In this document: positions 12,593 through 36,063 of the stretch, one piece after another | Position numbering within the stretch: the first letter of the stretch is position 1 | How the letters are laid out: every line of letters starts with the position of its first letter | Assembly: GCA_008933045.1 (NCBI GenBank) | Contig: WBXJ01000003.1 | Span: 1-36,063, forward strand | Reading direction: 5' to 3' | Source of the DNA: Verrucomicrobiota bacterium | GTDB taxonomy: Bacteria > Verrucomicrobiota > Verrucomicrobiia > Limisphaerales > SXQI01 | Length of the DNA: 36,063 bases | Notes under the pieces: model-generated | The model's database searches: none | Told to the model about the DNA's origin: nothing | The model's input: the letters and a program-made list of their open reading frames with translations, nothing else | Position numbers and translations under genes: made by a program

Positions 12593-12621
12593 TTGCCCTT
12601 AAATGCGCGTCTCATTACCTT
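12593..12621 (+). promoter_or_regulatory. Candidate sigma70-type promoter for the cytochrome gene pair
   Basis: TTGCCC-17 nt-TACCTT, ending 13 nt before ATG 12635; divergent from the esterase promoter. Confidence 0.4.
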
Positions 12622-12634
12622 CTTGAAAATCACC

Positions 12635-19236: not shown

Positions 19237-19305
19237 ATGTCGATGACCGATTTACAAATTGAAGTGCTTGCCAAAGGACAAGGTCCGCTCGCCGCTGCGG
19301 GCCAA
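19237..19305 (+). pseudogene. 5' fragment of an interrupted FKBP-type peptidyl-prolyl isomerase gene
   Basis: Reads MSMTDLQIEVLAKGQGPLAAAGQ, the typical FKBP first strand (L.IE.L..G.G..A..GQ). It joins in frame to 26733..26996. Confidence 0.85.
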
Positions 19306-19311
19306 TCCGTC
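19298..19311 (+). repeat. Left junction direct repeat CGGGCCAAtCCGTC
   Basis: Matches 26725..26738 (CGGGCCAAaCCGTC) at 13/14 positions; the first 8 bp are identical. Confidence 0.85.
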
Positions 19312-19717
19312 CACGAAGTTCATTCTGTTTCATCGCGGTTACCTCTGGATTGGGGAAACCGCCCCGATCATGCAGCGCGAGGGCAAGCACGTCTGGATCG
19401 ATTCGGTCTGGTTGCCAACCATCAGCTACACGATGGGCAAGCGCGCCTATGAAGAGTGGCTCGAGGTTATGCCAAGCAACCACCTGATGTGGGGCCCTGA
19501 CGCCCACCACGTCGAAGGCATCTACGGCGCGACCGAGTTCACGCGCCGTTGTCTGGCGGAGGCGCTCGCCGAGAAAGTCGAGCGGGGTGAACTCCGCGAA
19601 GTTGACGCACTCCCCATCGGCCAACAGGTGATGCGCGACAACGCGCTCGAATTATTTCCGCAGTTGAAGGATCGGCTGTGGAAACACAAAGGCAAATTGC
19701 CGCCGCCATCGAAGTGA
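19301..19717 (+). pseudogene. C-terminal fragment of an amidohydrolase_2-family (TIM-barrel) protein
   Basis: Reads ANPSTKFILFHRGYLW..HVWIDSVWLP..LMWGPD..EG..G..MRDNALELF. The N-terminal part of the barrel is missing and the fragment starts at the insertion junction. Confidence 0.75.
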
Positions 19718-19790: not shown

Positions 19791-22700
19791 TTATCTGAGT
19801 TTCGTGACGCTCCCATCGAGTCGAATTCTCACTTCCAGAGCGGGAACCGGCAGTGTCGAGCGGGTTGTTTTGCCGCCCGGCCAGTGAACCTCGATTTGAT
19901 TCGCGCCGGCGGGCACGGAGATGACCTGAACGGCACTGTCCTGCGACCAATAGCCTGATCCGGCGTGAACCTCCCGCGCCGGGCCGAGTTTGGATTCATT
20001 TCCGACGCGCAAAATGGCCCCGACACCCAGGGCGTTGCCGGGCGGGCCTTCCAGCCGGACCCGCAGGCCGGGTTTTGCCAAGCGATTGTGCAGCAGCCGG
20101 GTCCGGGCCGAGTTCTGGGCCACCGCGATATCAACCCGACCATCCCCATCATAATCGCAGAGAGCGGTCCCGCGCTGCTCGCCATAGACAAGAATCCCGG
20201 ACTCCTGCCCCGGAACGGTGGTGAATCTCCCCGCGCCATCGCCGCGCAGCCACAGGCCGCGTCCCGCATCCTGGCGCGGTATTGAAAGTTCGACCCCAAA
20301 GAAATTCTGGCCCAGAAAAATGTCCTCGTTGCCGTCGCCATCCAGATCGCCCGCGTTGACCCCAAAGGCGGGGGCGAATTGGGCTTCGGCTGGAAGGGGG
20401 AGGGACTCAAAATGATCGCCGCGGTTTAGGAAAAGAGTCGTTTCCAGCATGTTCAGCCGGAGTTCCCCAAAGCTTTTCAATTTCTCCCTAAACATTTCCG
20501 CCAAACTCGATGAGCCGTACTCCTGATGCGAAGAAAACCGCTCGATCAAAAATGGGAAGGTCGCCATCATGGGTTTCCAGTCCCGCAAGGGGTAGAGTTT
20601 TTTGCTTTCAGCATCCTGGTAGGCCTCGAACAGCGCCATCGCCCCGCCGCTTTCCACAGCGGTGTAAAACAAGCGCGCTTCCCCCGCGATGGTCGCCTGA
20701 TATTTGGTGTTGCGACCCAAATTGGAGGCGAGGATATCCAGGCGCCCGTCTCCGTCGAAATCGCCGGTCGTGATCCCATTCCAGCAGCCGCGCCATTTAG
20801 AGAGCGATGGTTTCAAAGGATCTTCGCTCAATTTTCCTTTCTTGTTCCAGAAAATGTGGATGCCCCCCCAGTCTGTGGCCACCAGCAGTTCGGGAAAACC
20901 ATCCGCATCCAGATCGCTGAAAACGGCCCCGCTCGCCATACCGAGAGGGGCCAGCAGAAGGTCGCCCTCTTTGTCCGGCTGGAACCGTCCTGATTCGTTT
21001 CGGAAAAGATGGGAGTCGGCAGCTTGGGGAAACCTCCCCGGGATCACACGTCCCCCCACAAACAAATCCAGATCCCCATCCCCGTCGATGTCGGCCAGCG
21101 AAAGAGGCCCAACACTGGAGGAGCCCGATGGAAGTCCCTCGCCGGGCGTGATGCCGGCGCCGTTGATCTCAAATCGGCCGACCCCGTTCGTGACCCCTTC
21201 CTGATAGCTAGAAAGCCCGATGAACAGTGTGCTGGAACCGTTGGCGGCCGACCAACCGACGAGGCCGGTTTGGTCTCCGGGAGTGACTTGGTCTAGCGGG
21301 GCGGCTGACCAAGGCGAAAAGCCGCCCTTCCCGTCATTCAGGAAGAAGGCCGCGCGGCCCCCTTTCCCACTGCCGATCACTAAATCCTCCCAGCCATCGC
21401 CATTCAAATCCAGCCAAGCTAGGCCCGGCCCCAAGCCGCTGAGGCTTCGCGGCAGCAACGGCTCGCGCTCGAAATCATTGAAGGGCTCGTCAAAATGGGT
21501 GTGGTTCAGCAATTCGCTGGCGTCCTCAAATTGTGGGGGAGGGGAATTCCGAGAGGGTGGGGGAGTGCCAAGCGCGCCCGCCTCCGCGATTTCATAAACA
21601 CGGTTCGGGGTAGCGTTCGTGACCATGCTCGTGCTACCCCCGCGCCACACCACTCTGATTGTCATGGATTGGCTTTGCCTCGCCGCGAACATGCGCATGG
21701 CCTCATCGCTCGAAAGATAACGGCCCCCGCAGATGATCTCCTGACTTTGAGCGGGGAGAGGAGAGGCGGGTTCATTGGGTGTGACGCAAATTTTTGCGCC
21801 AATCCCGGCCGTGTTCTTTGGTTTGCCTTTTAGCCTCACCGCGACCCGGGGGAGGGTCGTGTCATTTCGGAAGAGTTCCGGCTCGCTGTTGAGGGTGGCG
21901 ACGATCACATCCATGTCCCCATCGTTGTCCAAATCGGCCAGGATCATGCCCTGCGAAACCGTTTTGCTGTCGAATCCCCAGCTTTTCCCGACTTCCTCGA
22001 AGGTCAGATCGCGCTTGTTTCGAAAAGCGCAATTTGGCGTTTCGAGTTTTGGGGTGGAGCGGCGCAGGTCGAGTTTTTCCTGCCGGGTCAGTTTCTTTTG
22101 AGCCTTGAGCGCTTCCAGTTTCTCGCCCACATCCATGTTTTGGCTGTCCGCAAAAAAGCCGTTGGAGACCAGCAGATCCTCGTATCCATCCAGATCGACA
22201 TCCAGCAGAATGGGAGTCCATGACCAGTCCGAGGACTCCAATCCCGCATAAAACGCAATCTCCGCAAAAGTGCCGTCCCCGCGCCCGAGGCCGACGGTGT
22301 TCATCAAATTTTGTGGCCTGCCGGGCAAATCCAGCTTCCCCCTGTTGATGGACGCCGTCATCCCAGCCTGAACCATTCTGTTGGCATGGTCGCGGGGCAG
22401 CATGTCCATCACGATGAAATCGTCGTGCCCATCCCGGTTGATATCCCCGAAGTCCACCCCCATGGAGAAGACGCTCGTTTTCCGAATGGCCGTTCTCGCA
22501 ATGGCCCGGAAATGCCCCTCGCCGTCGTTGATCCAGATTCGGTCCGGACTGAAAAAATCATTACAAACATAGATGTCGGGCGCCCCATCCCCATTTAGGT
22601 CGCGCATCATCACTGAGAGGCCCCAATCGTAGGGTGTTTTGCTCGGGGCTCCGTCCTCATCGCGAAATGCGCCACCCTGCCATGGCACGGCGGAAAATTT

Positions 22701-23519
22701 GCCCGTCCCATCATTCAGGAATAAGCTGTCCGGCTCGCCGTGCTCTGTTATTCCCGTGGTCGGGTTGTAGGTGAAACGCCCCACCAAATCCGGATCCGTC
22801 GTGGGCCTGCCGTCCACCATGGTTACGATAGTCCGCCCATTGGGCTCCTTGAGCATTCGAAACCGGGTGTCCGGCTCGTCGCGCAGGGTGGAGGAGCGAT
22901 AGTTCTCAACATATAAATCCAAATCCCCATCCCCATCCACATCCGCCAGGGCGAGAGAGGAGCCTCCCCTCGGGCTTTTAAGCTCCGGGCTGGCCGTCTC
23001 GAGAAAATGCCCTTTCCCATCATTCAAAAGGGTGGAAACACCTTTGCCGATACTGTTCACGATGAGATCCAGGTCGCCATCGCCATCCAGATCGGCCAGG
23101 GCGACGCCGGTCGCGCTTAACTTGGTGCAAGCCGCCCCCGACTGCGCCGTGATGTCTTGAAAGTGCCAGTTCCCCAAATTCCGGTAGAGGGCCCCGCCCC
23201 CCTCCAGCCGGGCAAAATAAAGATCGCACAGACCATCCCCGTCCACGTCGCCGGCGGCGACCCCCGACCCATTCTGATAGATGCTGTTTGTGACGGCCAG
23301 ATCCATCCGCAGAAAATTAGTGGCCACAATTCCCGTGATGCTGCCCGTCATTTTTGTAAAGCCGGTTTTTCCCTGGAGAGGAATCGGGAGGGTCGCGCTG
23401 CGAAAGCCATCGCCCTCCTGCCATTGCAAAGTCCCGGCGCCCGCCGGAGCGACACAAAACACGGACAAGAAAAACACGCCCAAAAGGCCCGAAAAACCGT
23501 GGAAAACGGATGATGGCAT
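19791..23519 (-). CDS. Secreted FG-GAP/VCBS-repeat protein with ASPIC-UnbV domains (CRTAC1 family), 1242 aa
   Basis: Signal peptide; many DxDGDGxxD Ca-binding blade repeats; SDWSW motif; ASPIC-UnbV-like segments VRLKG...N..GIGAKI..GGRYLSSD and VRLEG...N..GVGA..GSGYWSQD. Confidence 0.9.
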   Translation of the reverse strand: MPSSVFHGFSGLLGVFFLSVFCVAPAGAGTLQWQEGDGFRSATLPIPLQGKTGFTKMTGSITGIVATNFLRMDLAVTNSIYQNGSGVAAGDVDGDGLCDLYFARLEGGGALYRNLGNWHFQDITAQSGAACTKLSATGVALADLDGDGDLDLIVNSIGKGVSTLLNDGKGHFLETASPELKSPRGGSSLALADVDGDGDLDLYVENYRSSTLRDEPDTRFRMLKEPNGRTIVTMVDGRPTTDPDLVGRFTYNPTTGITEHGEPDSLFLNDGTGKFSAVPWQGGAFRDEDGAPSKTPYDWGLSVMMRDLNGDGAPDIYVCNDFFSPDRIWINDGEGHFRAIARTAIRKTSVFSMGVDFGDINRDGHDDFIVMDMLPRDHANRMVQAGMTASINRGKLDLPGRPQNLMNTVGLGRGDGTFAEIAFYAGLESSDWSWTPILLDVDLDGYEDLLVSNGFFADSQNMDVGEKLEALKAQKKLTRQEKLDLRRSTPKLETPNCAFRNKRDLTFEEVGKSWGFDSKTVSQGMILADLDNDGDMDVIVATLNSEPELFRNDTTLPRVAVRLKGKPKNTAGIGAKICVTPNEPASPLPAQSQEIICGGRYLSSDEAMRMFAARQSQSMTIRVVWRGGSTSMVTNATPNRVYEIAEAGALGTPPPSRNSPPPQFEDASELLNHTHFDEPFNDFEREPLLPRSLSGLGPGLAWLDLNGDGWEDLVIGSGKGGRAAFFLNDGKGGFSPWSAAPLDQVTPGDQTGLVGWSAANGSSTLFIGLSSYQEGVTNGVGRFEINGAGITPGEGLPSGSSSVGPLSLADIDGDGDLDLFVGGRVIPGRFPQAADSHLFRNESGRFQPDKEGDLLLAPLGMASGAVFSDLDADGFPELLVATDWGGIHIFWNKKGKLSEDPLKPSLSKWRGCWNGITTGDFDGDGRLDILASNLGRNTKYQATIAGEARLFYTAVESGGAMALFEAYQDAESKKLYPLRDWKPMMATFPFLIERFSSHQEYGSSSLAEMFREKLKSFGELRLNMLETTLFLNRGDHFESLPLPAEAQFAPAFGVNAGDLDGDGNEDIFLGQNFFGVELSIPRQDAGRGLWLRGDGAGRFTTVPGQESGILVYGEQRGTALCDYDGDGRVDIAVAQNSARTRLLHNRLAKPGLRVRLEGPPGNALGVGAILRVGNESKLGPAREVHAGSGYWSQDSAVQVISVPAGANQIEVHWPGGKTTRSTLPVPALEVRIRLDGSVTKLR

Positions 23520-23581
23520 CGGTTCCTAATCCTACAACCCAACCGGAATAACTCCATCTCTTTCTGAGACCCCCTTGTACG

Positions 23582-23611
23582 AAAAAGAGGCCGGGCCACC
23601 GGCCCGGCCTC
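23582..23611 (-). terminator. Intrinsic terminator after the 969-aa gene
   Basis: Perfect 11-bp stem GAGGCCGGGCC/GGCCCGGCCTC with a 3-nt loop, followed by TTTTT on the minus strand. Confidence 0.85.
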
Positions 23612-23635
23612 CGCGAAACATTTGCTCTCGTTGGA

Positions 23636-26545
23636 TTACTTGATCAAACGATAGAATTTGGCAGAGCCTGTGGCTGCGACGGTCGCGGTGCTCACCCCTC
23701 CGTTCACCACCACGGCGTCCGCCGCATTCTCGTAGCCACGGTCAACCGTGGCGGAGCTTTGTAGTTTGAATCCTGTGCCAGTCCAGGAAATGACGGCATT
23801 GGCTCCATCTTTCGCAATGCTCAGGATTGGAGCGGGTTCCGGAAGCCCGTAAGACCCAAACCCATGGATGTTTGAAACACTGTAATACGCCGGATTTTTG
23901 CCGCTTGTGTCCGTCATCCCGATGTAGCCAATTAAGACTTTTTCATTCAGGACGCTAGTGTGAGACCCGTCCGCCTCCCAAGTGACGCCGTCATAGGAGT
24001 AATAGAAGTTGAAGATATCTCCCGCTCTCCGGATGCGCAACCAGCGCGAGGCGTCAGGTGAGGTGTTGGGCATCTGCGCGCCCGAGGCGTCCGCAGTGAT
24101 CAGCCTTCCGAACCGGCCCTGCACACCATTGATCTTCGTGCCGGTCCCTATCGGACCGGTGTTGCCGTAACCGCCGCCTTCGTTGTCCCGCCAAATTCCA
24201 ATGGCGGTCCGTTCCTGGTTGGCCTCGGCATAGGTCGTGTACATCACGTGCTTAACTTTCGTTCCATTGGAGGTGTAATCCTCGTCCGGCAGGTAGAGCG
24301 AATTGCGCACCATCAGACCGGCGTGGCCGTAACTAGCGGTGCCGATGGACCGATCAAGGCGGTCCACCCCAACAACGACGTCGAAATCGCCGGTGACTTC
24401 CTTGTAAAGGAAGTGGCCGAAATCGCCAGCGTTCCAGAGGTTAGAGCCACCACCGATCACTTCCACTTCGATGTTGTCCCCGGAGGAAACGCCCACCGAC
24501 TGGCCCACCACGAAGGGATCGTCGCCGTCTTGCGAGCGGTTCTCTGGATCGAAGGCGCCAATATCGACTGCCTTCCAGTCGGAGGCTTTGGCCTGGACCG
24601 AGGAGTTCGCTGCGATCGTGTTGCCAGCCGCGTCTTTCACGCCGTTTACCTTGACCGTGAAGGTATCTGCGGTCAACCCGGTCACTGTCAGATGGACCGT
24701 GTTCACATTCAACCCTGATTTCACCGCTGTCACAGTGCCACCTGACACGATGAAATTGGCGGTTTGCAGGGAGGCCGCACTGGGGGCCTCAGAAAACTTC
24801 ACACCAATGGTTTTCTTGTCCAGAGTGCCGGCCGAGATCAGCGTGGGAGCGGTCGTGTCGCTGAGGTCGGTGTCCAAGAAGTTTTCGAACGTGGCTGTGC
24901 CGCCATACAGGCCGACCAGGAGGTCATCCGCCAGGTTGTTCATATAACGCTCGCTGATCAGGGACCATTGCTGGCCATTGATTCCTACGAAGGCCTGGAA
25001 GTTGTCCCCCACGCGCCGGAGCCGAATCCATTGATTGGGCAGGTTGTCGGCGACGCCACCATAGCCTCGCCCAAATTGGCCGAGCCCAGAAACATCATCC
25101 GCGATTCCGCGCAAGTTGATCTGGTCGGTCACCGAGATTCTGACCTGGATATCGTTGGGTTCGGCCCCAACCGAGGCCCTGAGGCCAACCTCTCCGGCGC
25201 TGACTGAGGTGATCTGAACCTTCTTGTCAAAATCACCCTTGATCGCGTAATAAGCAAAGTCATCGGCGATCGAGAATGAGTTCGGACCCGAGCTGATTGT
25301 GCCATTTCCCGCCCTCATCGGGAGCGTGATTCCGCTGGCCTGAGTGTTGGCGGCGATCGTGTTGCCAGCGACGTCCTTCACCCCGCTGATCTTGATCGAG
25401 TAGGGCCCAACGGCAACCCCGGTCACAGTCAAATGAACCGTCTTTTTGTCGACGGCGAGAGCGGCGGCCACAACCTGCCCTCCACCCACTAAGGTGTAAT
25501 TTTCGGCTTTGTCGGTGGTGTTCTGGTTCATCAAACCATCAAACGCGATGCTGATGCTGTCAATAAAACCGCCGGTGCGATCCACCGTTGGGCCGAAATT
25601 GTCGAGTTTGACGCCCAGATTCACCGTGGAGCTTGTCGTCGAAGAGCCCGGGATGGAGACCACAACCTTGATCTTGCTCTGGTCGTCGGCCAGACTCAAC
25701 TGTGCGATTTTGAAAGTCGCGCTGTTCGCCCCGGGCACAGCCACATTATTCACAAACCATTGGTAACTGACGTCGTCCGAATTGATTTGGGTGTTGCCGG
25801 AGAACCCGAGCGCGACCACCGTGAAAGTGGCCGGCAGGTTTTCAACCGTGTCCATGGCGACCGGTCCCACGCGGATCTCCACCGTCGGATTCGGATAGGT
25901 GAAGTTACCATAGCCGCTGTAAAGCGCTTGTCCGCCTCCATTCGCCGTCGCAAAACCGATCAGCCCGTCAGTCGGGATATCAATCGAGCCCTTCCCAAAG
26001 GACATCCAAGTGAGCCCATCCGCGCTCAGGAAAGCCGAGAATTGGTTGCCCTGCCGTTTGAGGCGCAGGTAATTGTTCGGGGGAAGGTACTTTGTGCTCG
26101 AGAGCCAATTGTTGAACGGGGGATTGGCCCAGTAGAAACCCCCATTGTCCACGGTCCTGATGTGAAAGCCATGGAGCGTGTTTCCCGGTAATTGGCCGCC
26201 ATAAGTTGTGTTGTAAGCCGTCTGACTGCTCGGATCAAGGCTCGACCGAAACATCAGTCCATTCCGGTTGCTGGGCTGGGTGATGCTTTTAATTTGGACT
26301 TTTTTGTCGAAATCGCCGCTGATGGGCTCGTAGACAAAAGTGAAATTGTCGGCTGTCCCCCAAATGTCTGATCCGCCCCCCGTGACCAGAATCTCATCGG
26401 GATTTGTGATGTCCGCTGTGCCGGTAGCATTATTATCGCCAATGTTTGCCGTGGTGAACTCCGCCTGCAGGGGCGGGCTGACTACCGCTGTCAGGATCAC
26501 AGCCGCAAGGGCTATGACAACTGATGTCAATTTCGTTTTTTTCAT
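23636..26545 (-). CDS. Large secreted modular protein: three ConA-like (DUF1349-type) domains, Ig and Big_5-like domains, C-terminal beta domain
   Basis: Signal peptide ending LQA. Three repeats of ..GDFD..V....GL..R....W/YLRL.R.G..F......G..W; an Ig domain with SYQWFVN; two repeats ending GVKD[VA]AGNTIAAN; C-terminus ISWTGTGFKLQSS...KFYRLIK. Confidence 0.8.
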   Translation of the reverse strand: MKKTKLTSVVIALAAVILTAVVSPPLQAEFTTANIGDNNATGTADITNPDEILVTGGGSDIWGTADNFTFVYEPISGDFDKKVQIKSITQPSNRNGLMFRSSLDPSSQTAYNTTYGGQLPGNTLHGFHIRTVDNGGFYWANPPFNNWLSSTKYLPPNNYLRLKRQGNQFSAFLSADGLTWMSFGKGSIDIPTDGLIGFATANGGGQALYSGYGNFTYPNPTVEIRVGPVAMDTVENLPATFTVVALGFSGNTQINSDDVSYQWFVNNVAVPGANSATFKIAQLSLADDQSKIKVVVSIPGSSTTSSTVNLGVKLDNFGPTVDRTGGFIDSISIAFDGLMNQNTTDKAENYTLVGGGQVVAAALAVDKKTVHLTVTGVAVGPYSIKISGVKDVAGNTIAANTQASGITLPMRAGNGTISSGPNSFSIADDFAYYAIKGDFDKKVQITSVSAGEVGLRASVGAEPNDIQVRISVTDQINLRGIADDVSGLGQFGRGYGGVADNLPNQWIRLRRVGDNFQAFVGINGQQWSLISERYMNNLADDLLVGLYGGTATFENFLDTDLSDTTAPTLISAGTLDKKTIGVKFSEAPSAASLQTANFIVSGGTVTAVKSGLNVNTVHLTVTGLTADTFTVKVNGVKDAAGNTIAANSSVQAKASDWKAVDIGAFDPENRSQDGDDPFVVGQSVGVSSGDNIEVEVIGGGSNLWNAGDFGHFLYKEVTGDFDVVVGVDRLDRSIGTASYGHAGLMVRNSLYLPDEDYTSNGTKVKHVMYTTYAEANQERTAIGIWRDNEGGGYGNTGPIGTGTKINGVQGRFGRLITADASGAQMPNTSPDASRWLRIRRAGDIFNFYYSYDGVTWEADGSHTSVLNEKVLIGYIGMTDTSGKNPAYYSVSNIHGFGSYGLPEPAPILSIAKDGANAVISWTGTGFKLQSSATVDRGYENAADAVVVNGGVSTATVAATGSAKFYRLIK

Positions 26546-26679
26546 ATTGTTTTCTCTGCAATCAGGCGGAGCTACAGAGCCAAGTCGATATGGCTTCTCA
26601 CACGTCTCGAGTGTGGATTATTGTCTGCAGTTCAACAGGATTGTTTCGATACACTAAGAATAAAATTACCCCGTGAAAA

Positions 26680-26697
26680 GTCACCAGTTATGGTGAC
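26680..26697. promoter_or_regulatory. Perfect inverted repeat GTCACCA-GTTA-TGGTGAC, candidate operator
   Basis: 7-4-7 palindrome ~135 bp upstream of the 969-aa gene and 27 bp from the right junction repeat. Confidence 0.35.
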
Positions 26698-26724
26698 GTA
26701 ACAAGTCAATCGGCTTCGACGAGT

Positions 26725-26738
26725 CGGGCCAAACCGTC
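26725..26738 (+). repeat. Right junction direct repeat CGGGCCAAaCCGTC
   Basis: Partner of 19298..19311, offset 7427 bp. Confidence 0.85.
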
Positions 26739-26996
26739 ACCGTCCACTACACAGGTTGGTTCACCGACGGATCCAAATTTGATTCCTCGGTGGATCGCGA
26801 TGATCCTTTTACGTTTCTTCTTGGGGCAGGGCAGGTCATTGCCGGTTGGGATCAATCCGTTGCCACTCTCCGCGTCGGTGACCACATCAAGGTCACAATT
26901 CCTCCCCACCTAGCCTACGGAGCCGCAGGGTATCCGGGTGCGATTCCTCCCAACTCGACCCTCGTTTTCGAGATTCAGCTGCTGGCCGTCGCTTAA
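26727..26996 (+). pseudogene. 3' fragment of the interrupted FKBP-type PPIase gene
   Basis: Reads GQTVTVHYTGWFTDGSKFDSSVDRDDPFTFLLGAGQVIAGWD...IPPHLAYG..G.PG.IPPNSTLVFEIQLL. There is an in-frame TGA at 26694 and no start codon between it and the FKBP sequence. Confidence 0.92.
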
Positions 26997-27240
26997 GGAG
27001 CTTTTCTCAGAGGGGTGGGGTAACCATTTTTGGGTCGAAAATTTTGTCACATTTCTGTTGCACAATTGTCGCTGGACAGCTTTACTTAAATTGTCCCTTA
27101 ACAATATGTGTTCCGATAGCAGCTTAAACCCTAGCTTGTGGCGCAGAGTCTCTGAATCTTGTGGGTGCTTGATTCGATGGGCTTCTGTGGCCTTTTTTAG
27201 GTTAAACCCAGCTGCTCAGGAATTCTTCCCAAAGACTCAT

Positions 27241-30200: not shown

Positions 30201-32427
30201 TGCAAGCAACCGCAGGACCGTGGTGATCAAGTTCAACGAGCCAATCGCGTCAGGTGCTGATGTCGCAGCGAACTACTCCGTCAGTGGCGGGGTGGGCGCA
30301 GCAACAGCCGCCGCCGCCTCGGGTTCGGGTGCTATCATTACTGTGGGTGCAGACCTCGTGGTCGGTAATACTTACACCCTCACGGTGAAGGGAACTAGGG
30401 ACTTCGCTGGCAACACGACAGCCGCTGCAACAGCGACCTTCACGGTCACCTTCGCCTCGGGCTTCGTGCTATACGAACGCTATGATGGTATCGGTGGCAC
30501 CGCCGTCGATGCCCTCACCGGCGACGCCAAGTATCCGAATTCACCAGACGCGACAGGTTATCTCACATCAATGAGCTTTGAGCCGAACTTGGATAATTAC
30601 GGAGTGAGAATCTCTGGATATATCACACCCGCAACCACGGGTAACTACCGGTTCTTCATTCGTTCGGATGATGCCTCTCAGATGTGGCTATCCACGGATG
30701 ACACCGAAGCTAATGCTTCCAAGATCGCCGAAGAAACAGGATGCTGCAACGGCTTCCAAGAGCCGCTCGATAAATCTCAAACATCCGAGCCACAAAACCT
30801 GCTCGCAGGAACACGTTATTACTTCCACGCTTTCATGAAAGAAGGCGGCGGCGGCGACAACGTCCAATTGGCTTGGCGCGAAGAGGCGGACACTACGCCA
30901 GCCAACAAACTCGGTAATCTGAGCGGTTCGGTGCTTGGAACCTACGTTGATCCAACAGGTCGCGGAGTGAACATCCTCACCCAGCCCCAATCAGCCTCTG
31001 TGGTTGAAGGTCGGACCGCTACTGTATCGGCACTCGCTGTCCCAGTACCTGCCAACGGCGGCTTGAGCTACCAATGGCAGTATAAGCCACCGGGCTCAGC
31101 TGGATTCGTCAACATTGATGGAGCCACGGGAGCCAGCTACACCAGCGGTCCTCTGCCTTTGGGCTTGAACGGCGCATTGGTTCGTGTCATCGCTTCCACC
31201 ATCGGTGGAATCTCCACAGCTTCTACCGAAGTTGTGTTAACGGTCACCAAGGACAGCAGCGCACCTGTGGGTCGTATCCACACAGTGAGCGGCAACGGGG
31301 GAGTTCAGATCCGGGTTGACTTCGACGAAGATGTCAATGCGGCTTCGGCCTTGGCACCCGCCAGCTATTCGTTGAGCAAAGGATCCATCTCGAGCGTCAG
31401 CCTAGTCGGTGCTCGTGGGGTCATCCTCCAGACTACGGGCCTTTCAATCGGCGATAGCTTCGTGCTCACCCTCAGAGGTGTGAAGGACTTGTTCGGTAAC
31501 TCGGTCACCGGCAGCATCAATGGCAAGGTCAGCACCTTGTCTTGGGTGGAAATCGGTGGTCGCGAGTGGAAGAACACGGCTCCTGACGTGGTTCAAATCG
31601 GCGCGAATGACTTCGACCTCTACAGCGGCGGTAACGGCTTCTGGAGTAACTATGATGAAGGCACCTTCCTCTACGAAGAAGTCACTGGCGACTTCAACCG
31701 CCAAGTCCGTGTGGAGTATCAAGATGCTTCCTCGCACTGGGCACGTTGCGGTCTGATGGTTCGCGTTGCGACTGACGAAGGCACAACCCGTGCTCAAGCG
31801 CAAGAAATCGTTGATGGGGCTCCTGGTCCAAAAGCCATGAGCCAATATCAACAACTCTTCTTGGATCCAACCACCAAGTGGGATGGTAGCGGCGCCAACA
31901 ACGGTCATGAGACCAATCGCCGCACCGAACCCGGTGCACAAACCGGCAGTTCCCAGAACAACTTTGGTGGTACGCCTCCTCCTTACCCCAACGCTTGGAT
32001 CCGGATGGAACGCAAGGGTGATGTTCTGAGCTACTACAAGGGTATCAATGGACTCGATTGGGACTTCGTAGGTAGCATCAAGATCAGCGGCCCAGACTCG
32101 TCATTCACTCCTGAAATGCCTGCGAAGGTGTTGGTTGGAATGATCTATTGCCCAGAAATCGGCAATAACGGTGCAGCGGGTCAAAAGACCTATATGTCCA
32201 AGTTCCGCTCCTACAGCGATGGCGCAAGCGCACCTCCTGCAGACCCAGCGAAACTCACCGTCAGCTCTGCTGATGGTAAGGTTAGCGTTAGTTGGACACC
32301 TACAGGCGGCACACTGCAATCAAGCTCAGCGGTTGGCGCTGGCGCAGTCTGGACCGATGTGGGCGCTGGTAACCCAGCCTCCATCACCCCGAGCAGCGCG
32401 ACGCTGTTCCTGCGTGTAAAGAATTAA
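27241..32427 (+). CDS. Very large secreted modular lectin/adhesin-like protein (~1728 aa): L-type lectin-like, three PA14-like, Ig, Big_5-like and ConA-like domains, C-terminal beta domain
   Basis: Start probably ATG 27241 (or 27316) rather than 26938; signal peptide ending SAQA. Motifs ADGMAFAF..VSFDTWDN (L-lectin-like); SDDG/SDDG/SDDA each with [EK]EGGGG (PA14-like); SYQW Ig domains; FLYEEVTGDF..GLMVR..WIRMERKG; C-terminus VSWTPTGGTLQSS...LFLRVKN. Confidence 0.82.
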   Translation: MRNNQPVGFGPQSGSTPTLLPSFARMFSALRAKSGRVGRLLTVASSVSLLTGLSAQAAIYSNNFDAGLGDAVVAGSAYHMATGGIDNTGYVSVTDAVNSQQGMFVLPEFTNGELVSGFKATFKVQIGGGTSRAADGMAFAFSSSIDEGSTFGEEGPAGAALIVSFDTWDNNGTDTAPSIDIKVNGNDDASIVATTWLAGEREGGRTRPSAIFKDPLGKEVSLMTTGWADVSIEVKDNVLSVSYKGVETVKGVVVAFPPTAGRFAFGARTGGANANQWVDSLRIETYPITPGLAGFSYTPDGLTFKLNDISGQKVDPASVSVKMDGSDVAITTSKAGDFTTGVYAGSTLFPAGSSHSATVTFSYGTPAKTKSITLPGTIPSYAVLDAANVIPASKVDKTSSGFTAYVHRARQDAGLPNDTARTEAQLRGFLVDPQTGAPYENLADDAAVGADQTSLGNRRFTLPVINLDQNAADQGNFQSTSDPSRPESQFPGLDPSIPGGELENFADEFIGFLELPKGVIRMGVNSDDGFLVTSGADPRNPSATKLGEFQGGRGASDTIFNVYVPVAGIYAFRVIHEEGGGGANCEFFTIKADGTKVLVNDPEVAGAIKSYRIATLSTTAPAYFAGSIPGNNSNTSRQPSFRVGLSDSGTKVVKSSIKVSLDGVDITSGATVTQVAGDTTITYSTTALLPYGSAHALVVTWSDNGSPAKANVNTVNFNVGGGVVMKVYRDINGGGVGDLTNSEKFISNAPDEVSEVGSMEHLALGDNYGSEMLGYFVPDHDDTYTFYLSSDDGSTLWLSTDESPANVVRIGNQGGWNGDREWVSGGDAAARQSPPIALKKGSRYFMYALQKEGGGGDSLSVAFTDLTTKTTIVNGDAAISKQMQPFTGAGFSASPKSATVSKGLTYSASARAISATAGAISYQWMRNGSPISGATSPDYTIAAVAFPGDNGAKFTVVATVGAITATSAEAVLTVVDDNAAPVVASAYASNRRTVVIKFNEPIASGADVAANYSVSGGVGAATAAAASGSGAIITVGADLVVGNTYTLTVKGTRDFAGNTTAAATATFTVTFASGFVLYERYDGIGGTAVDALTGDAKYPNSPDATGYLTSMSFEPNLDNYGVRISGYITPATTGNYRFFIRSDDASQMWLSTDDTEANASKIAEETGCCNGFQEPLDKSQTSEPQNLLAGTRYYFHAFMKEGGGGDNVQLAWREEADTTPANKLGNLSGSVLGTYVDPTGRGVNILTQPQSASVVEGRTATVSALAVPVPANGGLSYQWQYKPPGSAGFVNIDGATGASYTSGPLPLGLNGALVRVIASTIGGISTASTEVVLTVTKDSSAPVGRIHTVSGNGGVQIRVDFDEDVNAASALAPASYSLSKGSISSVSLVGARGVILQTTGLSIGDSFVLTLRGVKDLFGNSVTGSINGKVSTLSWVEIGGREWKNTAPDVVQIGANDFDLYSGGNGFWSNYDEGTFLYEEVTGDFNRQVRVEYQDASSHWARCGLMVRVATDEGTTRAQAQEIVDGAPGPKAMSQYQQLFLDPTTKWDGSGANNGHETNRRTEPGAQTGSSQNNFGGTPPPYPNAWIRMERKGDVLSYYKGINGLDWDFVGSIKISGPDSSFTPEMPAKVLVGMIYCPEIGNNGAAGQKTYMSKFRSYSDGASAPPADPAKLTVSSADGKVSVSWTPTGGTLQSSSAVGAGAVWTDVGAGNPASITPSSATLFLRVKN

Positions 32428-32429
32428 TC

Positions 32430-32461
32430 GCATCATCCCGCTCCTGAGCGGGAATGAATGC
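32430..32461 (+). other. Stem-loop immediately after the stop codon
   Basis: Core TCCCGCTC-CT-GAGCGGGA with imperfect GCATCAT/ATGAATGC extension; lies just before the terminator. Confidence 0.45.
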
Positions 32462-32469
32462 TGAATCAC

Positions 32470-32505
32470 AAGGGGTCGGACGAAAGTCCGGCCCCTTTTT
32501 TCTTT
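32470..32505 (+). terminator. Intrinsic terminator after the 1728-aa gene
   Basis: AAGGGGTCGGAC-GAAA-GTCCGGCCCCTT (GNRA loop, one G-U pair) followed by a T-rich tract. Confidence 0.88.
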
Positions 32506-32555
32506 CCCTTTTCGCTCTGTTCAAGCACAACAGGTTCATACATTTTAAACCTCTT

Positions 32556-35500
32556 ATGCGCCGCTGGCTTTGGGCACTCTTTGCGTGTCAATTTCCGTTT
32601 TTTTTCATCCAAGCTGAGCCACTATTACAACGGATTCCTTCGTCGGAATCAGGATTGGATTTCACTAATCGAATCGCTACATCGCGCCATTTCACGAATC
32701 AAGTTCTCCTCAATGGCTCAGGTGTCGCCGCAGGAGATATCGATGGAGATCAAGCCATCGATCTCGTGTTTGGGAATCTGCAAGGCCCCCCACAACTCTT
32801 TCGTAATTTGGGGCACTGGAATTTTACCAATATAACCGCCTCGGCAGGTTTAGCGGAGGCAGTGGCGGATTCCACCGGCGTCGTTCTGGCTGACGTCGAT
32901 GGTGATGGAGACTTGGATTTAGTATTTAACACCGTTGCCAAAGGCACTTATCTTTACCTCAACGACGGTCGTGGCAACTTCTCAAAACCTCTAGGCTTCA
33001 CCCCGCTCAATGGTCAGGCAGGTGGAATGTCCCTGACGCTGGGGGATATCGACGGTGATGGAGACTTGGATCTTTATGTAGCCAATTACCGCGCCGCAAC
33101 GATTCGTGATCAGCTCAATTCGAAATTTTCATTCCGCAATGTGCAAGGCAAACCTGAATTGGCTTCGATCAACGGAAAACCAATCACGGATCCCGAGTAT
33201 ACCAATCGCTTTGTCTACACTTTGACCGCCTCTGGAGGTAAGGGAAATTTCCTTCATTACGAAACAGGATTGCCGCATGCGCTATTCCTTAATGACGGGA
33301 AAGGTCATTTCAAGCACGAGTCTTGGACGGGTGGTCGGTTTAAGGACGAGCAGGGTGAGACTCTGACATCGGCTCCTTACGACTGGGGATTGTCGGCTTC
33401 GTTTCGCGATTTGAATCAGGATGGATTTCCGGATCTTTATGTGTGCAACGATTTCCAAAGCCCCGATCGCATCTGGATGAATGACGGGAGAGGAAATTTC
33501 CGAGCACTTTCTGGAGAGGCCATTCGCCACGCGCCGTATTACAGTATGGGGGCAGACTTTGGGGATTTGGATCGAGATGGAAATGACGATTTTCTCGTGC
33601 TGGACATGCTCAGTCCGAACCACACACGCCGAATGATCCAACTCTCGGACGTACGCAACGATATGGGTTCCCCAGGGTATAAAATTGATCGCCCTCAACT
33701 CCCTCAGAACGCGCTTTATCGGGGCCGCGGAGATGGAACTTTTGCCGAGGTCGCAGAGTATGCGGGGCTAGCAGCGACAGATTGGAGTTGGGCGGTGGCT
33801 TGTGTGGACCTGGACCTTGACGGTTTGGAGGATATCCTCATTACCAATGGTTTCGAGCGGGACAACATGAATATGGATGCTGTTCGGCAGATGCAGGAGG
33901 CGAAGGTCGGTCGGCAACTTTCCATCGCCGAGATTTTTGATCTTCGCCGAGTATTTCCGCGATTGAACACTCCTAATTTTGCCTACCGCAATCTTGGAGG
34001 GTTTAAATTCAAGGACATGAGTGATGAGTGGGGTTTCAACGCGGCTGCGGTGTCCCAAGGCATGTGCCTCGCTGATTTAGACGGTGATGGTGACCTCGAC
34101 GTGGTGGTCAACAACATGAACGACGGGGCCCTCCTTTACCGCAACAACGCCAAGGGAGGCCGCGTGTTGGTTCGTCTTCAAGGCAGTCTCGCCAATCGCC
34201 AAGGGGTGGGTGCCCGAATCACAGTGCATGGCGGTGCCGTCCCTGAGCAATCTCAGGAGATTCAAATCGGTGGCCGGTATTTATCGAGTGATGCTGCCGA
34301 GCGGATGTTCGCCACGGGCACGAATCAAACGGTTGAGATCGAGGTGCGTTGGCGTTCTGGGCGGCAGACATTCGCCAAAGCGGTGCGTGCTAACACCACC
34401 GTAACGATCAAGGAGACCGACAGCCAACCCGCCGAAGCGCTTAAAACTCCTCAGCGCACTCCTTTTTTCACCGAGCAGAATCCACCGGCTTGGATACCGA
34501 GTAACGAGATGTTCGATGATTTCTCTCGGCAACCGTTGATGCCTTACCGTATTGGCCATATGGGGCCCGGGGTTGCTTGGTTGGATATGGATGGCGATGG
34601 TCGAGAGGAACTCGTGGTCGCGCCACAACACAACGGGGTGACCCGAATGTTCAAGTGGGTTAATGATCAGTGGGAAGGCATCCACACCAATACGGCGATC
34701 GTCGTTCGCCCCGGAACATCCATGGTGCTTCTGCCTCAGGGGCAGCTCTGGGTCGGGGTATCAACTTGGGAGGATGGTCAACCCGCTGGGCCGGGCATCG
34801 TGATCTATCGAATCAAGCCGGATGGAACGATCGAAGTGGATGGGTCTTCGCTGCCGGCGTTAGCCGAGGGAAGCGTGGGCCCGATGGCGGCTGCTGACGT
34901 GGATGGGGACGGGGATTTGGATGTGTGGGTTGGAGGACGCGCGGTTGCTGGACGATGGCCCGAGCCGTCCTCCGGTTGGTTGTATCGTAACGAGGGTGGA
35001 AAACTGGTCCTGGATCAAGCGTTGAGTCAACCGTGGGTCAAAATCGGTTTGGTGAGTGGAGCGTTATTTGCGGATATCAACGGTGACGGAAAGCCGGATT
35101 TGGTGACCGCAATGGAATGGGGACCGGTGAGGGTTTGGCTCAACGAAGGGCAGGGTCGCTGGACTGAGGGCACGGACGCGCTTGGGTTGGCCAAGGAGCG
35201 AGGATGGTGGACTAGTGTCACGGTCGGCGATTTGGATGGAGACGGACGCTTGGACCTTGTGGTGGGGAATTGGGGTGCCAACACTTCCTATGAAGCTTGG
35301 CGAGGTGGAAAATCCCTACGTCTCTATGCCGGAGATTGGGATAATGATGGCACCACCGAGATGCTCGAATCTCATGTCGAGGCGGGGAAATGGGTGCCGA
35401 ATCGTCGCTTGGATTTTCTCTCGAAAACCTTGCCGTGGTTAAAGGAAAAATTTGCTTCCCACGCTGCATACGCCGCCGCGACTGTGGAAGAAGTGCTGGG

Positions 35501-36063
35501 AGAGGAGCTGCTCAAAAAATCAATGATTCTTGAAGCGAACGTTTTAGAAACGAGCATTTTTTGGAATCGTGGAGGCCGCTTCGAAAGGCAACCGCTCCCG
35601 ATGGAAGCTCAGGTGTCTCCCGTGTTCGGAGTCGCCATCGCGGATGTGGATGGTGACGGGCGGCAGGACGTGATCTTGGGTCAAAACTTTTTTGGTTATC
35701 AAGGCGAAACCCCACGCAATGATGCGGGTTTAAGTGTCTGGTTAAAGAATCTGGGCCAAGAAAAGTTTGAAGCGGTCTCGGCCCAAACCAGCGGGATTCG
35801 CATCTGGGGTGAAGCTCGCGGTCTGGCAACGGGAGATTTTGATGGTGATGGGCGTGTGGATCTCGCGGTGGGGTTGAACGCACCCGAGGTGAAGGTTTAT
35901 AGGAATCGGCTAGGTAAACCGGGCCTTCGCGTCAGACTCAAGGGACCTCCGAGCAATCCACTGGGAGTAGGAGCTAAATTACGCCTCATCACCGCCGGTG
36001 GACAATACGGACCGTTGCACGAGGTGCGGATGGGTGGAGGTTATTGGTCGGTGGATGCTGCCA
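32556..36063 (+). CDS. Second secreted FG-GAP/VCBS + ASPIC-UnbV (CRTAC1-family) protein, 3'-truncated by the window edge
   Basis: Absent from the ORF track because it has no stop. Manual translation gives MRRWLWALFACQFPFFFIQAEP..SGLDFTNR..NGSGVAAGDIDGD, and the same frame at the edge reads RVRLKGPPSNPLGVGAKLRL..HEVRMGGGYWSVD. Colinear with 19791..23519. Confidence 0.9.
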   Translation, partial: MRRWLWALFACQFPFFFIQAEPLLQRIPSSESGLDFTNRIATSRHFTNQVLLNGSGVAAGDIDGDQAIDLVFGNLQGPPQLFRNLGHWNFTNITASAGLAEAVADSTGVVLADVDGDGDLDLVFNTVAKGTYLYLNDGRGNFSKPLGFTPLNGQAGGMSLTLGDIDGDGDLDLYVANYRAATIRDQLNSKFSFRNVQGKPELASINGKPITDPEYTNRFVYTLTASGGKGNFLHYETGLPHALFLNDGKGHFKHESWTGGRFKDEQGETLTSAPYDWGLSASFRDLNQDGFPDLYVCNDFQSPDRIWMNDGRGNFRALSGEAIRHAPYYSMGADFGDLDRDGNDDFLVLDMLSPNHTRRMIQLSDVRNDMGSPGYKIDRPQLPQNALYRGRGDGTFAEVAEYAGLAATDWSWAVACVDLDLDGLEDILITNGFERDNMNMDAVRQMQEAKVGRQLSIAEIFDLRRVFPRLNTPNFAYRNLGGFKFKDMSDEWGFNAAAVSQGMCLADLDGDGDLDVVVNNMNDGALLYRNNAKGGRVLVRLQGSLANRQGVGARITVHGGAVPEQSQEIQIGGRYLSSDAAERMFATGTNQTVEIEVRWRSGRQTFAKAVRANTTVTIKETDSQPAEALKTPQRTPFFTEQNPPAWIPSNEMFDDFSRQPLMPYRIGHMGPGVAWLDMDGDGREELVVAPQHNGVTRMFKWVNDQWEGIHTNTAIVVRPGTSMVLLPQGQLWVGVSTWEDGQPAGPGIVIYRIKPDGTIEVDGSSLPALAEGSVGPMAAADVDGDGDLDVWVGGRAVAGRWPEPSSGWLYRNEGGKLVLDQALSQPWVKIGLVSGALFADINGDGKPDLVTAMEWGPVRVWLNEGQGRWTEGTDALGLAKERGWWTSVTVGDLDGDGRLDLVVGNWGANTSYEAWRGGKSLRLYAGDWDNDGTTEMLESHVEAGKWVPNRRLDFLSKTLPWLKEKFASHAAYAAATVEEVLGEELLKKSMILEANVLETSIFWNRGGRFERQPLPMEAQVSPVFGVAIADVDGDGRQDVILGQNFFGYQGETPRNDAGLSVWLKNLGQEKFEAVSAQTSGIRIWGEARGLATGDFDGDGRVDLAVGLNAPEVKVYRNRLGKPGLRVRLKGPPSNPLGVGAKLRLITAGGQYGPLHEVRMGGGYWSVDAA

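What the first reader, a model, noticed from the sequence alone, without database searches (positions are those of the whole stretch)
19791..36063. Repeated two-gene module: variable multi-lectin secreted protein, terminator, conserved FG-GAP/ASPIC-UnbV partner
Seen: two back-to-back units with the same layout, 26545->23636 / terminator / 23519->19791 and 27241->32427 / terminator / 32556->edge. The first genes share domain types (ConA-like, Ig, Big_5-like, C-terminal domain) in different combinations. The second genes are colinear paralogs of about 1200 aa. One unit lies within the insert. Known: bacterial ASPIC-UnbV/CRTAC1 proteins have no established function, and similar large ones often sit beside SusC/SusD genes in Bacteroidota. 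Inference: an exchangeable surface glycan-recognition or adhesion system, with an abundant variable binding subunit and a less abundant Ca-propeller partner acting as scaffold, chaperone or enzyme. This is the best candidate here for an undescribed system.
Basis: partly seen in the sequence, partly recalled or inferred. Interest (0 to 1): 0.75.

Follow-up and report, generated by a model that had tools for sequence, protein, structure and literature searches.

The report
Lectin-like gene, terminator, propeller gene module
Two neighbouring gene pairs each encode a variable secreted sugar-binding-type protein followed by a terminator and a large calcium-propeller protein, a pairing that recurs in related soil and water bacteria (Verrucomicrobiota) but whose function is still unknown.

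Summary
Two divergent units lie at the stated coordinates. Each has a mosaic lectin-like gene (A), a strong terminator hairpin and a ~1200-aa FG-GAP/UnbV gene (B).

B is a tandem duplication of a CRTAC1-like propeller plus UnbV unit.

In 78 related Verrucomicrobiota loci, an A-type gene is the same-strand upstream neighbour of 20 of 73 evaluable B arrays. The rate among other flank genes is 24 of 375 (odds ratio 5.5, p 1e-6). A types track B subclades.

Three results change the reading:
- The terminator marks A-type genes in general, not the A-B junction: 28 of 44 A-type, 1 of 121 B, 15 of 391 other genes.
- Most B arrays have no A.
- A proteins share an unannotated ~65-aa C-terminal domain found in at least 18,359 protein clusters.

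Best reading: a conserved, probably co-expressed secreted pair, with A abundant and exchangeable and B the conserved partner. Binding, cell location and ligand are untested. The "insert" claim is not supported. I found no published description. Interest is moderate.

The parts
19791..23519 (-). B1: 1242-aa secreted double CRTAC1-like protein. Two FG-GAP/VCBS propellers, each followed by an UnbV_ASPIC-type domain.
   Evidence: ORF. Pfam FG-GAP_3 277.6 bits in 10 stretches and UnbV_ASPIC 48.7 bits in 2 stretches. PDB sequence hit to CRTAC1 9etn, E 6.8e-17. Model pLDDT 87.8, pTM 0.88. Foldseek top hit 9etn, E 1.1e-23, TM by target 0.72. The two halves are homologous, E 3e-13. The N-terminal hydrophobic segment is read from the sequence.
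23578..23612 (-). Intrinsic-terminator-like hairpin (12-bp stem, 10 G-C pairs) plus T run, 24 nt after the A1 stop and about 60 nt before the B1 start.
   Evidence: (dG -28.9)
23636..26545 (-). A1: 969-aa secreted mosaic lectin-like protein. Signal peptide 1-28; ConA-like 30-215; Ig 220-313; Big_5-like 320-408; ConA-like 430-558; Big_5 568-655; DUF1349 ConA-like 658-898; C-terminal domain 905-969.
   Evidence: ORF. Pfam DUF1349 51.2 bits and Big_5 36.9 bits. Model pLDDT 76 with these domain limits. Foldseek hits are neurexin LNS arrays, Ig chains and GhpA, and no enzyme core.
23639..23848 (-). C-terminal domain (CTD) of A1, last 70 residues.
   Evidence: No Pfam, NCBIfam or PDB sequence match.
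26546..27240 (.). Divergent intergenic region between A1 and A2. It holds an FKBP-type frame of 99 codons without a start codon (26697..26996, +).
   Evidence: No Rfam family. No conserved upstream word among A-type genes.
27241..32427 (+). A2: about 1700-aa secreted mosaic lectin-like protein (start at 27241 or 27316). In numbering from the GTG at 26938: L-type-lectin-like 176-378; unannotated PA14-like middle part about 400-820; PA14/GLEYA 873-965; Ig about 1013-1073; Big_5 1085-1169; PA14 1207-1315; Ig, Big_5-like; DUF1349-like 1558-1717; CTD 1762-1827.
32215..32424 (+). C-terminal domain (CTD) of A2.
32470..32505 (+). Intrinsic-terminator-like hairpin (12-bp stem, 8 G-C pairs) plus T run, 43 nt after the A2 stop and about 50 nt before the B2 start.
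   Evidence: (dG -23.4)
32556..36063 (+). B2: paralogue of B1 (44% identical), cut by the window edge near its C-terminus.

Best explanation
The window holds two copies of a module that is conserved in Verrucomicrobiota (Pedosphaera/Limisphaerales-type genomes).

Gene A is a Sec-exported string of beta-sandwich domains: ConA-like/DUF1349/LamG, PA14/GLEYA and L-type-lectin-like modules, spaced by Ig/Big_5 domains. It ends in a ~65-residue C-terminal domain that is widespread in the phylum. A strong intrinsic terminator closes A. Such a hairpin is typical of a heavily transcribed, stable mRNA.

One to four genes of type B follow directly on the same strand. Each B is a tandem pair of CRTAC1-like calcium-loop propellers with an UnbV/TTR-type domain, and each is also Sec-exported.

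I infer that B is made at a lower level, mostly by read-through from the A promoter. I also infer that A and B act together outside the cytoplasm in capturing a polymeric ligand, most likely a glycan. In this reading A is the exchangeable specificity part and B the conserved partner.

Shown: the anatomy, the recurrence, the co-inheritance, and the terminator as a hallmark of A-type genes.
Inferred: relative expression, joint action, and the ligand class.
Unknown: what B does chemically, and whether A and B touch.
For: Layout in the window.

Enrichment. Of the 632 genome stretches that matched, 581 encode a B relative. Only the best 80 (78 loci) were kept and examined. In those, an A-type gene is the same-strand upstream neighbour of 20 of 73 evaluable B arrays (21 further arrays were not evaluable). 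The rate among other non-B flank genes of at least 200 aa is 24 of 375 (Fisher odds ratio 5.5, p 1.2e-6). In two more loci (L030, L041) A sits one ORF further upstream. No other family recurs near B as often; the next is a TPR protein in 7 loci.

Age and co-inheritance. The 24 upstream A proteins fall into 13 clusters. These clusters map onto B subclades. Window B1 and B2 lie in different starred subclades holding 4 A-linked of 10 rows and 6 of 9 rows. CTD distances and B distances correlate (Mantel r 0.27, p 0.002, 19 pairs).

Terminator. A hairpin with dG <= -19 plus a T run follows 28 of 44 A-type genes, 1 of 121 B genes and 15 of 391 other genes. The gaps from the terminator to the B start are only about 50-60 nt and hold no sigma-70-like site.

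Lectin-like nature of A: Pfam and fold.

Domain fusion. 4 of the 36 relatives of A1 join an FG-GAP propeller to a DUF1349 domain in one chain.

A few glycan-related genes lie downstream of B: a PL8 lyase, a sulfatase and a CBM9 protein, 3 of 26.
Against: - 50 of 73 evaluable B arrays have an unrelated upstream neighbour (28 same strand, 22 opposite) and 3 have a divergent A-type gene. B therefore does not need an adjacent A.
- The terminator follows A-type genes equally when something other than B comes next (12 of 22). It may simply end an independent A transcript.
- The loci were found through B and are the closest 80 of 581 hits. The rate of B downstream of A in whole genomes is unknown, and the background in these flanks may be inflated.
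- Related genomes share synteny by descent, so the p-values overstate independence. The Mantel signal is confounded by species phylogeny.
- The fused FG-GAP proteins lack the UnbV domain and are not B orthologues.
- No glycan-binding residues, expression data or localisation data were available.
- The 26 downstream neighbours are heterogeneous, and 11 have no Pfam family.
Confidence: 0.45

Rival explanations
1. Neighbours without joint function. A-type genes are autonomous, highly expressed units closed by their own terminator. B genes are separate units from a hugely expanded secreted family. Adjacency reflects clustering of secretome genes and inherited synteny.
For: The terminator is as common after A-type genes not followed by B (12 of 22) as after those that are (16 of 22). 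50 of 73 evaluable B arrays have an unrelated upstream neighbour. Both families are very large: 7542 of 8000 scored candidates match B at E <= 1e-10, and the CTD matches 18,359 clusters. The background rate of A-type genes in these flanks is already 6.4%.
Against: The upstream slot is enriched about four-fold over the flank background (27% against 6.4%). Among same-strand gene pairs whose second gene is unrelated, the first gene is A-type in only 5 of 213 (my tally from the categories). The link is kept across B subclades that are only about 45% identical and with 13 different A clusters. Gaps are short and on the same strand.
Confidence: 0.3
2. B is a handling or docking factor for the C-terminal domain. 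The CTD is a sorting or anchoring tag, and the propeller arrays hold, process or display CTD-bearing proteins at the cell envelope.
For: The CTD is the one element shared by nearly all upstream partners, including LamG-type proteins with no other similarity to A1 or A2. Of 82 single-copy hits among the top 150, 80 have it at the very C-terminus. Structure matches place it on Verrucomicrobiota proteins with unrelated N-terminal domains, including a nuclease, CAP, cyclophilin and a beta-helix.
Against: Many CTD proteins in the same flanks have no B beside them. The A proteins of L004 and L012 lack a CTD hit yet precede B. B has no membrane, barrel, protease or transferase domain. Some hits carry up to 32 tandem copies of the domain, so it is also an ordinary repeat module. 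The Atlas matches are short-domain TM scores, which are leads only.
Confidence: 0.1
3. B is an enzyme, for example one acting on a polysaccharide or another extracellular polymer, and A is its non-covalent targeting subunit.
For: Natural fusions of FG-GAP propellers with DUF1349 domains. Some beta-propeller proteins among the fold hits are glycoside hydrolases (GH74). A PL8 lyase or a sulfatase lies next to B in 2 of 26 downstream neighbours.
Against: The only specific structural relative is CRTAC1, which has no known catalysis. The other hits are generic multi-propeller scaffolds with TM 0.13-0.21 by query. No catalytic family matched in Pfam or NCBIfam.
Confidence: 0.1

Closest known systems
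CRTAC1 (cartilage acidic protein 1; PDB 9etn) and bacterial ASPIC/UnbV proteins
   Same: FG-GAP/VCBS propeller with Dx[DN]xDG-type calcium loops, followed by an UnbV_ASPIC domain. Sequence hit E 6.8e-17. Fold hit E 1.1e-23, TM 0.72 by target.
   Different: B holds two such units in one chain packed into one body (pTM 0.88). It lacks the animal EGF-like tail (no such Pfam hit). It occurs in arrays of old paralogues. No function is established for the bacterial proteins in the papers I could search.
Multi-domain lectin-like adhesion proteins (neurexin LNS arrays; PA14/GLEYA adhesins)
   Same: A is a chain of ConA-like/LNS-type and PA14/GLEYA domains spaced by Ig-like domains.
   Different: There is no sequence relation beyond the domain families. 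A carries a phylum-specific C-terminal domain and is genetically linked to propeller genes. Its binding specificity is unknown.
C-terminal sorting domains of secreted proteins (type IX secretion CTD; PEP-CTERM)
   Same: A small C-terminal module at the very end of many otherwise unrelated secreted proteins of one phylum.
   Different: No match to any NCBIfam or Pfam model. That NCBIfam holds the T9SS and PEP-CTERM models is recalled, not checked. The domain has no hydrophobic tail like PEP-CTERM (read from the sequences). It also occurs as internal tandem repeats.
Operons in which an abundant structural gene is followed by a terminator and low-level accessory genes (fimbrial major-subunit and S-layer loci; recalled, not tested here)
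   Same: First gene, strong hairpin, then same-strand genes after a short gap without a recognisable promoter.
   Different: No homology to pilins, ushers, chaperones or S-layer exporters. Read-through has not been measured.
Cohesin-dockerin (cellulosome) assembly
   Same: Only as an analogy for the boldest reading: a small terminal module on many secreted proteins, plus repeated scaffold-like partners.
   Different: No cohesin or dockerin family hit in A1, A2, B1 or B2. No binding is shown.

Membership tests
CRTAC1 / ASPIC-UnbV family (B1, B2) | FG-GAP/VCBS beta-propeller | tested here: met
   FG-GAP_3 at 277.6 and 283.4 bits (cut-off 26.9), in 10 and 11 stretches. The model shows two propellers.
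CRTAC1 / ASPIC-UnbV family (B1, B2) | UnbV_ASPIC domain after the propeller | tested here: met
   48.7 bits (2 stretches) and 44.5 bits, cut-off 23.4.
CRTAC1 / ASPIC-UnbV family (B1, B2) | Similarity to solved CRTAC1 | tested here: met
   phmmer E 6.8e-17. Foldseek E 1.1e-23, TM 0.72 by target.
CRTAC1 / ASPIC-UnbV family (B1, B2) | Animal-type architecture: one propeller-UnbV unit plus an EGF-like tail | tested here: not met
   Two units in tandem. No EGF family among the Pfam hits. B is a duplicated bacterial form, not an orthologue of animal CRTAC1.
DUF1349 (PF07081) ConA-like domain (A1, A2) | Pfam score above the gathering cut-off | tested here: met
   A1 scores 51.2 bits against 32.4. A2 scores only 21.2 bits, below the cut-off, but its C-terminal block is homologous to that of A1 (E 5e-23).
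PA14 / GLEYA carbohydrate-binding domains (A2) | Pfam score above the gathering cut-off | tested here: met
   A2: PA14 68.2 bits against 24; GLEYA 37.2 against 26.2. A1 has none.
Legume (L-type) lectin domain (A2) | Pfam score above the gathering cut-off | tested here: inconclusive
   41.4 bits against a cut-off of 78.3, E 1.9e-10, covering 197 of 215 profile positions.
Type IX secretion C-terminal domain / PEP-CTERM sorting signals (CTD of A) | Match to the curated models | tested here: not met
   0 NCBIfam families for A1. None of the 39 CTDs matches such a model at E <= 1. No consistent Pfam family. That the library includes these models is recalled.
SusC/SusD polysaccharide utilisation locus | SusC-like TonB-dependent transporter and SusD-like gene adjacent | tested here: not met
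   No such Pfam family among the 20 window ORFs scanned, nor among the 80 different neighbour proteins scanned from other loci.
Cohesin-dockerin system | Cohesin and dockerin domains | tested here: not met
   No hit in A1, A2, B1 or B2.
Attenuated operon (abundant first gene, terminator, read-through partners) | Strong terminator after gene 1, with same-strand genes close behind | tested here: met
Attenuated operon (abundant first gene, terminator, read-through partners) | Partial read-through giving unequal expression | not testable with these tools
   Needs transcript data.

The most novel reading that the evidence does not exclude
The ~65-residue C-terminal domain is a Verrucomicrobiota-wide display or sorting tag, present in at least 18,359 protein clusters. 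The arrays of double CRTAC1-like propellers are the envelope platform that receives it. This would be a docking system of a new kind, comparable in logic to cohesin-dockerin or to the type IX CTD pathway. The lectin-propeller pairs in this window would be its genetically linked core.
Probability: 0.08. Interest if true: 0.85.

Novelty: new variant of a known kind. Interest (0 to 1): 0.5.

Why it matters
Verrucomicrobiota of the Pedosphaera/Limisphaerales type are common in soil and fresh water and encode very many large secreted proteins of unknown role. B-type double propellers number in the thousands of clusters. The C-terminal domain of A occurs in more than 18,000 clusters. Neither has an assigned function, and the C-terminal domain has no family model.

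A conserved genetic link between the two gives a concrete starting point for experiments on what bacterial CRTAC1-like proteins do. That question is also open for the animal protein. If the pair proves to be a ligand-capture device with swappable specificity, it would describe a main way in which these bacteria meet polymers or surfaces.

Tried and rejected
- Complex prediction. A1 residues 655-969 against B1 residues 30-660 gave no verdict (runs 0.00, 0.54, 0.00; mark 0.32; controls not run). It is neither support nor evidence against binding. Full-length B did not fit the 1000-residue limit, so only the N-terminal half was tried.
- Word-indexed search with the CTD alone found only the protein itself.
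- Upstream regions. A search for conserved words or sigma-70 hexamers in the 200 nt upstream of 31 A-type genes found nothing. These 31 were the genes that passed my own signal-peptide score and had enough upstream DNA; the ones that failed were not counted.
- Rfam found no family in the window.
- Insertion marks around unit 1: no tRNA and no flanking repeats.
- Third conserved partner. The best candidate is a TPR family in 7 loci. The 26 same-strand downstream neighbours are heterogeneous.
- PDB sequence searches with the CTD profile and with the unannotated middle part of A2 found nothing usable.
- Literature. Searches returned listings only. I read passages of PMC3174227, PMC3909097 and PMC12758564. 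These mention ASPIC/UnbV or CRTAC1-family genes only as expanded or neighbouring genes. The paper on the CRTAC1 structure was not in the library.
- A second tree (IQ-TREE quick, 460 columns) resolved fewer clades but gave the same nearest neighbours and the same count of 12 label changes.
Full report
**What is in the window**

Four large ORFs fill 19791-36063:
- B1, 19791..23519(-), 1242 aa.
- A1, 23636..26545(-), 969 aa.
- A2, open from the GTG at 26938 to 32427(+). The second lies directly before a signal-peptide-like segment.
- B2, ATG at 32556, running off the window edge.

All four proteins begin with a short charged stretch followed by a hydrophobic one, as Sec signal peptides do (read). 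The two units are divergent. They are separated by about 700 nt that hold an FKBP-type frame of 99 codons without a start codon.

**The B genes**

B1 and B2 are colinear paralogues, with 520 of 1181 aligned residues identical. Pfam finds 10-11 FG-GAP_3 stretches and UnbV_ASPIC domains.

The only solved relative by sequence is CRTAC1 (9etn, E 6.8e-17). The model of B1 residues 45-1242 is confident (pLDDT 87.8, pTM 0.88). Its best fold match is again murine CRTAC1 (E 1.1e-23, TM 0.72 by target). All other matches are generic multi-propeller proteins with TM 0.13-0.21 by query.

The two halves of B1 are homologous to each other (E 3e-13). B is therefore a tandem duplication of the CRTAC1-like propeller-plus-UnbV unit. 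It lacks the EGF tail of the animal protein.

The family is very large. 7542 of 8000 scored candidates reach E <= 1e-10. The named ones are Verrucomicrobia or Limisphaerales records called VCBS or FG-GAP repeat proteins, or "enediyne biosynthesis protein E4". The Atlas neighbours agree on the phylum.

**The A genes**

A1 carries DUF1349 and Big_5. A2 carries two PA14/GLEYA domains, Big_5, a sub-threshold L-type lectin domain and a sub-threshold DUF1349 domain.

The two share a C-terminal block of about 380 aa (29% identical, E 5e-23) and weaker Ig and ConA-like matches elsewhere.

The model of A1 (pLDDT 76) resolves seven beta domains after the signal peptide. Three are ConA-like, separated by Ig and Big_5 domains, and the last is a small terminal domain. 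Its fold matches are neurexin LNS arrays, Ig chains, the GhpA grappling hook and the lectin wings of a sialidase. None is a catalytic core. "Variable multi-lectin-like secreted protein" is a fair description, although no sugar binding has been tested.

**The terminators**

The two strongest hairpins in the region lie in the two A-B gaps, with dG -28.9 and -23.4 kcal/mol. From the T run to the B start codon is about 60 nt in unit 1 and about 50 nt in unit 2. The consensus scan finds no sigma-70-like site there.

**Recurrence elsewhere**

A profile of B found 632 matching stretches in the species-representative genome set. Of these, 581 encode a relative. The best 80 gave 78 loci, nearly all titled Verrucomicrobiota, Pedosphaera or Limisphaerales; a few bins carry other names.

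I mapped ORFs in these loci. I marked B with a family profile and A with an iterated search from A1 and A2. B genes form 94 arrays: 65 single, 19 double, 7 triple and 3 quadruple.

Of the 73 arrays whose upstream side could be judged:
- 20 have an A-type gene as the same-strand neighbour.
- 3 have one divergently placed.
- 28 have another gene on the same strand.
- 22 have another gene on the opposite strand.

Among all other non-B genes of at least 200 aa in the same flanks, 24 of 375 are A-type. This gives an odds ratio of 5.5 and p 1.2e-6. Two further loci have A one ORF further upstream (L030, behind a short FG-GAP gene, and L041).

The upstream proteins are mosaics of the domain set seen in A2: PA14, GLEYA, Ig, Big_5 and L-type lectin, or LamG types.

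No other family is a comparably frequent neighbour. The best is a TPR protein in 7 loci. The 26 same-strand downstream neighbours are heterogeneous. They include one PL8 lyase, one sulfatase and one CBM9 protein, and 11 have no Pfam family.

**Age of the link**

In a tree of 97 long B proteins, the window's B1 and B2 fall in different well-supported subclades. A-linked members make up 4 of 10 rows in one and 6 of 9 rows in the other. The A-linked state needs 12 changes on the tree and is clustered (6 of 500 shuffles as low). A second, less resolved tree gave the same neighbours.

The 24 upstream A proteins form 13 clusters at 40% identity. These clusters follow B subclades:
- L040/L044/L048.
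- The LamG type, in the B1 subclade.
- The PA14/Big_5 type, in the B2 subclade.

A1 itself is unlike the LamG partners of its B subclade, which fits exchange of the A part.

CTD distances and B distances correlate weakly (r 0.27, p 0.002, 19 pairs), but shared species history contributes to this.

Within arrays, 39 of 45 B proteins are closer to a B in another genome than to their own neighbour. Arrays are therefore sets of old paralogues, not recent duplicates.

**What the terminator means**

In 15 of the 16 A-to-B junctions first examined, a canonical hairpin of dG -19 to -31.5 plus a T run lies within about 50 nt of the A stop. The wider census changes the reading. Such hairpins follow:
- 28 of 44 A-type genes: 16 of 22 followed by B, and 12 of 22 followed by something else.
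- 1 of 121 B genes.
- 15 of 391 other genes.

The terminator is thus a hallmark of A-type genes. This fits strong, discrete transcription or a stabilised mRNA. It is not a feature of the A-B junction as such. With same-strand B genes 50-200 nt behind it and no visible promoter, read-through at a low level is the simplest inference. It remains unmeasured.

**The C-terminal domain**

Both A proteins, 29 further A-type proteins and 8 other proteins in the loci end in a ~65-residue domain. Its consensus reads roughly ..I.W..G.G.LQS....G.W..V......FYR.. and it ends at the last residues. It is the only element shared by almost all upstream partners of B. The L004 and L012 proteins lack it.

A profile of it matches 18,359 cluster representatives at E <= 0.001 and 2,268 at E <= 1e-10. 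Among the top 150, 82 have one copy, and in 80 of these it lies within 6 residues of the end. 125 of 150 have a copy at the end. Some proteins have up to 32 tandem copies.

It matches no Pfam, NCBIfam or PDB sequence. Structure matches in the Atlas place it at the end of Verrucomicrobiota proteins with unrelated N-terminal domains: nuclease, CAP, cyclophilin, beta-helix and propellers. These are a lead only.

**Mechanism and confidence**

I commit to this reading. A and B form a conserved, co-inherited, probably co-transcribed secreted pair. A is abundant and exchangeable and gives ligand specificity, most likely for glycans. B is the conserved calcium-propeller partner, made at a lower level.

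My confidence in this package is 0.45. It is higher, about 0.6, that the link is functional at all, and lower, about 0.25, that A and B bind each other.

Supporting side evidence is the natural fusion of FG-GAP propellers with DUF1349 domains in 4 of 36 relatives of A1. These propellers lack UnbV.

The main rival, at 0.3, is plain neighbourhood of two expanded secretome families. This is favoured by the 50 of 73 arrays whose upstream neighbour is unrelated and by the terminator census.

**Comparison with what is known, and novelty**

B belongs to the ASPIC/UnbV-CRTAC1 family by domains, sequence and fold, as a duplicated bacterial form. A belongs to known lectin-like domain families.

The window has no SusC/SusD, cohesin, dockerin, pilus or secretion-tag family.

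My six literature searches and passages of three papers gave no functional study of bacterial ASPIC/UnbV proteins, no description of this pairing and no description of the C-terminal domain. Subscription papers and the CRTAC1 structure paper were not searchable.

I rate the finding a new variant of a known kind: a secreted binding protein with linked accessory genes. A small chance remains that it is something categorically new.

**Limits**

- The survey was anchored on B and used the closest 80 of 581 hits.
- ORF maps are my own crude calls.
- Related genomes are not independent.
- The "insert" idea and the Bacteroidota SusC/SusD remark stay unsupported and untested respectively.

Noticed in passing
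window 23639-23848(-) and 32215-32424(+); 37 further ORFs in loci L001-L077: An unannotated ~65-residue C-terminal domain (..I.W..G.G.LQS....G.W..V......FYR..). It matches 18,359 cluster representatives and is almost always at the very end of the protein. No Pfam, NCBIfam or PDB sequence match. It is a possible Verrucomicrobiota sorting or display tag.
   Followed up: partly
window 26697-26996(+): An FKBP-type peptidyl-prolyl isomerase frame of 99 codons with an essentially complete core but no ATG, GTG or TTG start. It lies between the two divergent A genes and is probably a 5'-truncated remnant.
   Followed up: partly
window 19259-19717(+): A 152-aa ORF with a weak, sub-threshold match to the C-terminal half of Amidohydro_2 (22.8 bits against a cut-off of 26.4). 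It is possibly a gene fragment beside unit 1.
   Followed up: no
window 24605-24703 and 25346-25444: A 99-nt direct repeat, 76% identical, inside A1. It marks an internal duplication of the Big_5-type module.
   Followed up: no
window 12593-15439(+) and 15436-16974(+): A 948-aa protein joining PA14 with cytochrome c domains, overlapping the start of a DUF7133 gene. This is another secreted-type pair of unknown role upstream of the finding.
   Followed up: no
window 3-1220(-): The N-terminal 406 aa of a protein with Lamin-tail and CHB_HEX_C domains, running off the window. The same domain pair occurs with CotH and a legume-lectin domain in a CTD-bearing protein of L042 (9762-14669, -).
   Followed up: no
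loci L007, L010, L031, L043, L047, L051, L053, L072 and others: B genes form arrays of up to four, often with 4-nt overlaps. Members are old paralogues (39 of 45 are closer to a B of another genome than to their neighbour), with the same order kept between some genomes (L053 and L072).
   Followed up: partly
L013 7036-9552(+); L025 15867-17882(+); L047 18363-20657(+): A PL8 polysaccharide lyase, a sulfatase and a CBM9/DUF5916 protein lie directly downstream of B genes in three loci. This is a faint hint of a glycan context.
   Followed up: no
loci (all 78 plus the window): Canonical intrinsic terminators are rare in these genomes (15 of 391 ordinary genes) but follow 28 of 44 A-type genes. Many share a GACCGGG...CCCGGTC stem core.
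   Followed up: partly
proteins P0145, P0151, P0155, P0160: Single chains joining an FG-GAP propeller, a PKD-like domain and a C-terminal DUF1349 domain. Other relatives of A1 join DUF1349 to PQQ/BamB-like propellers (P0135, P0138, P0142, P0144, P0153; precomputed Pfam labels only).
   Followed up: partly
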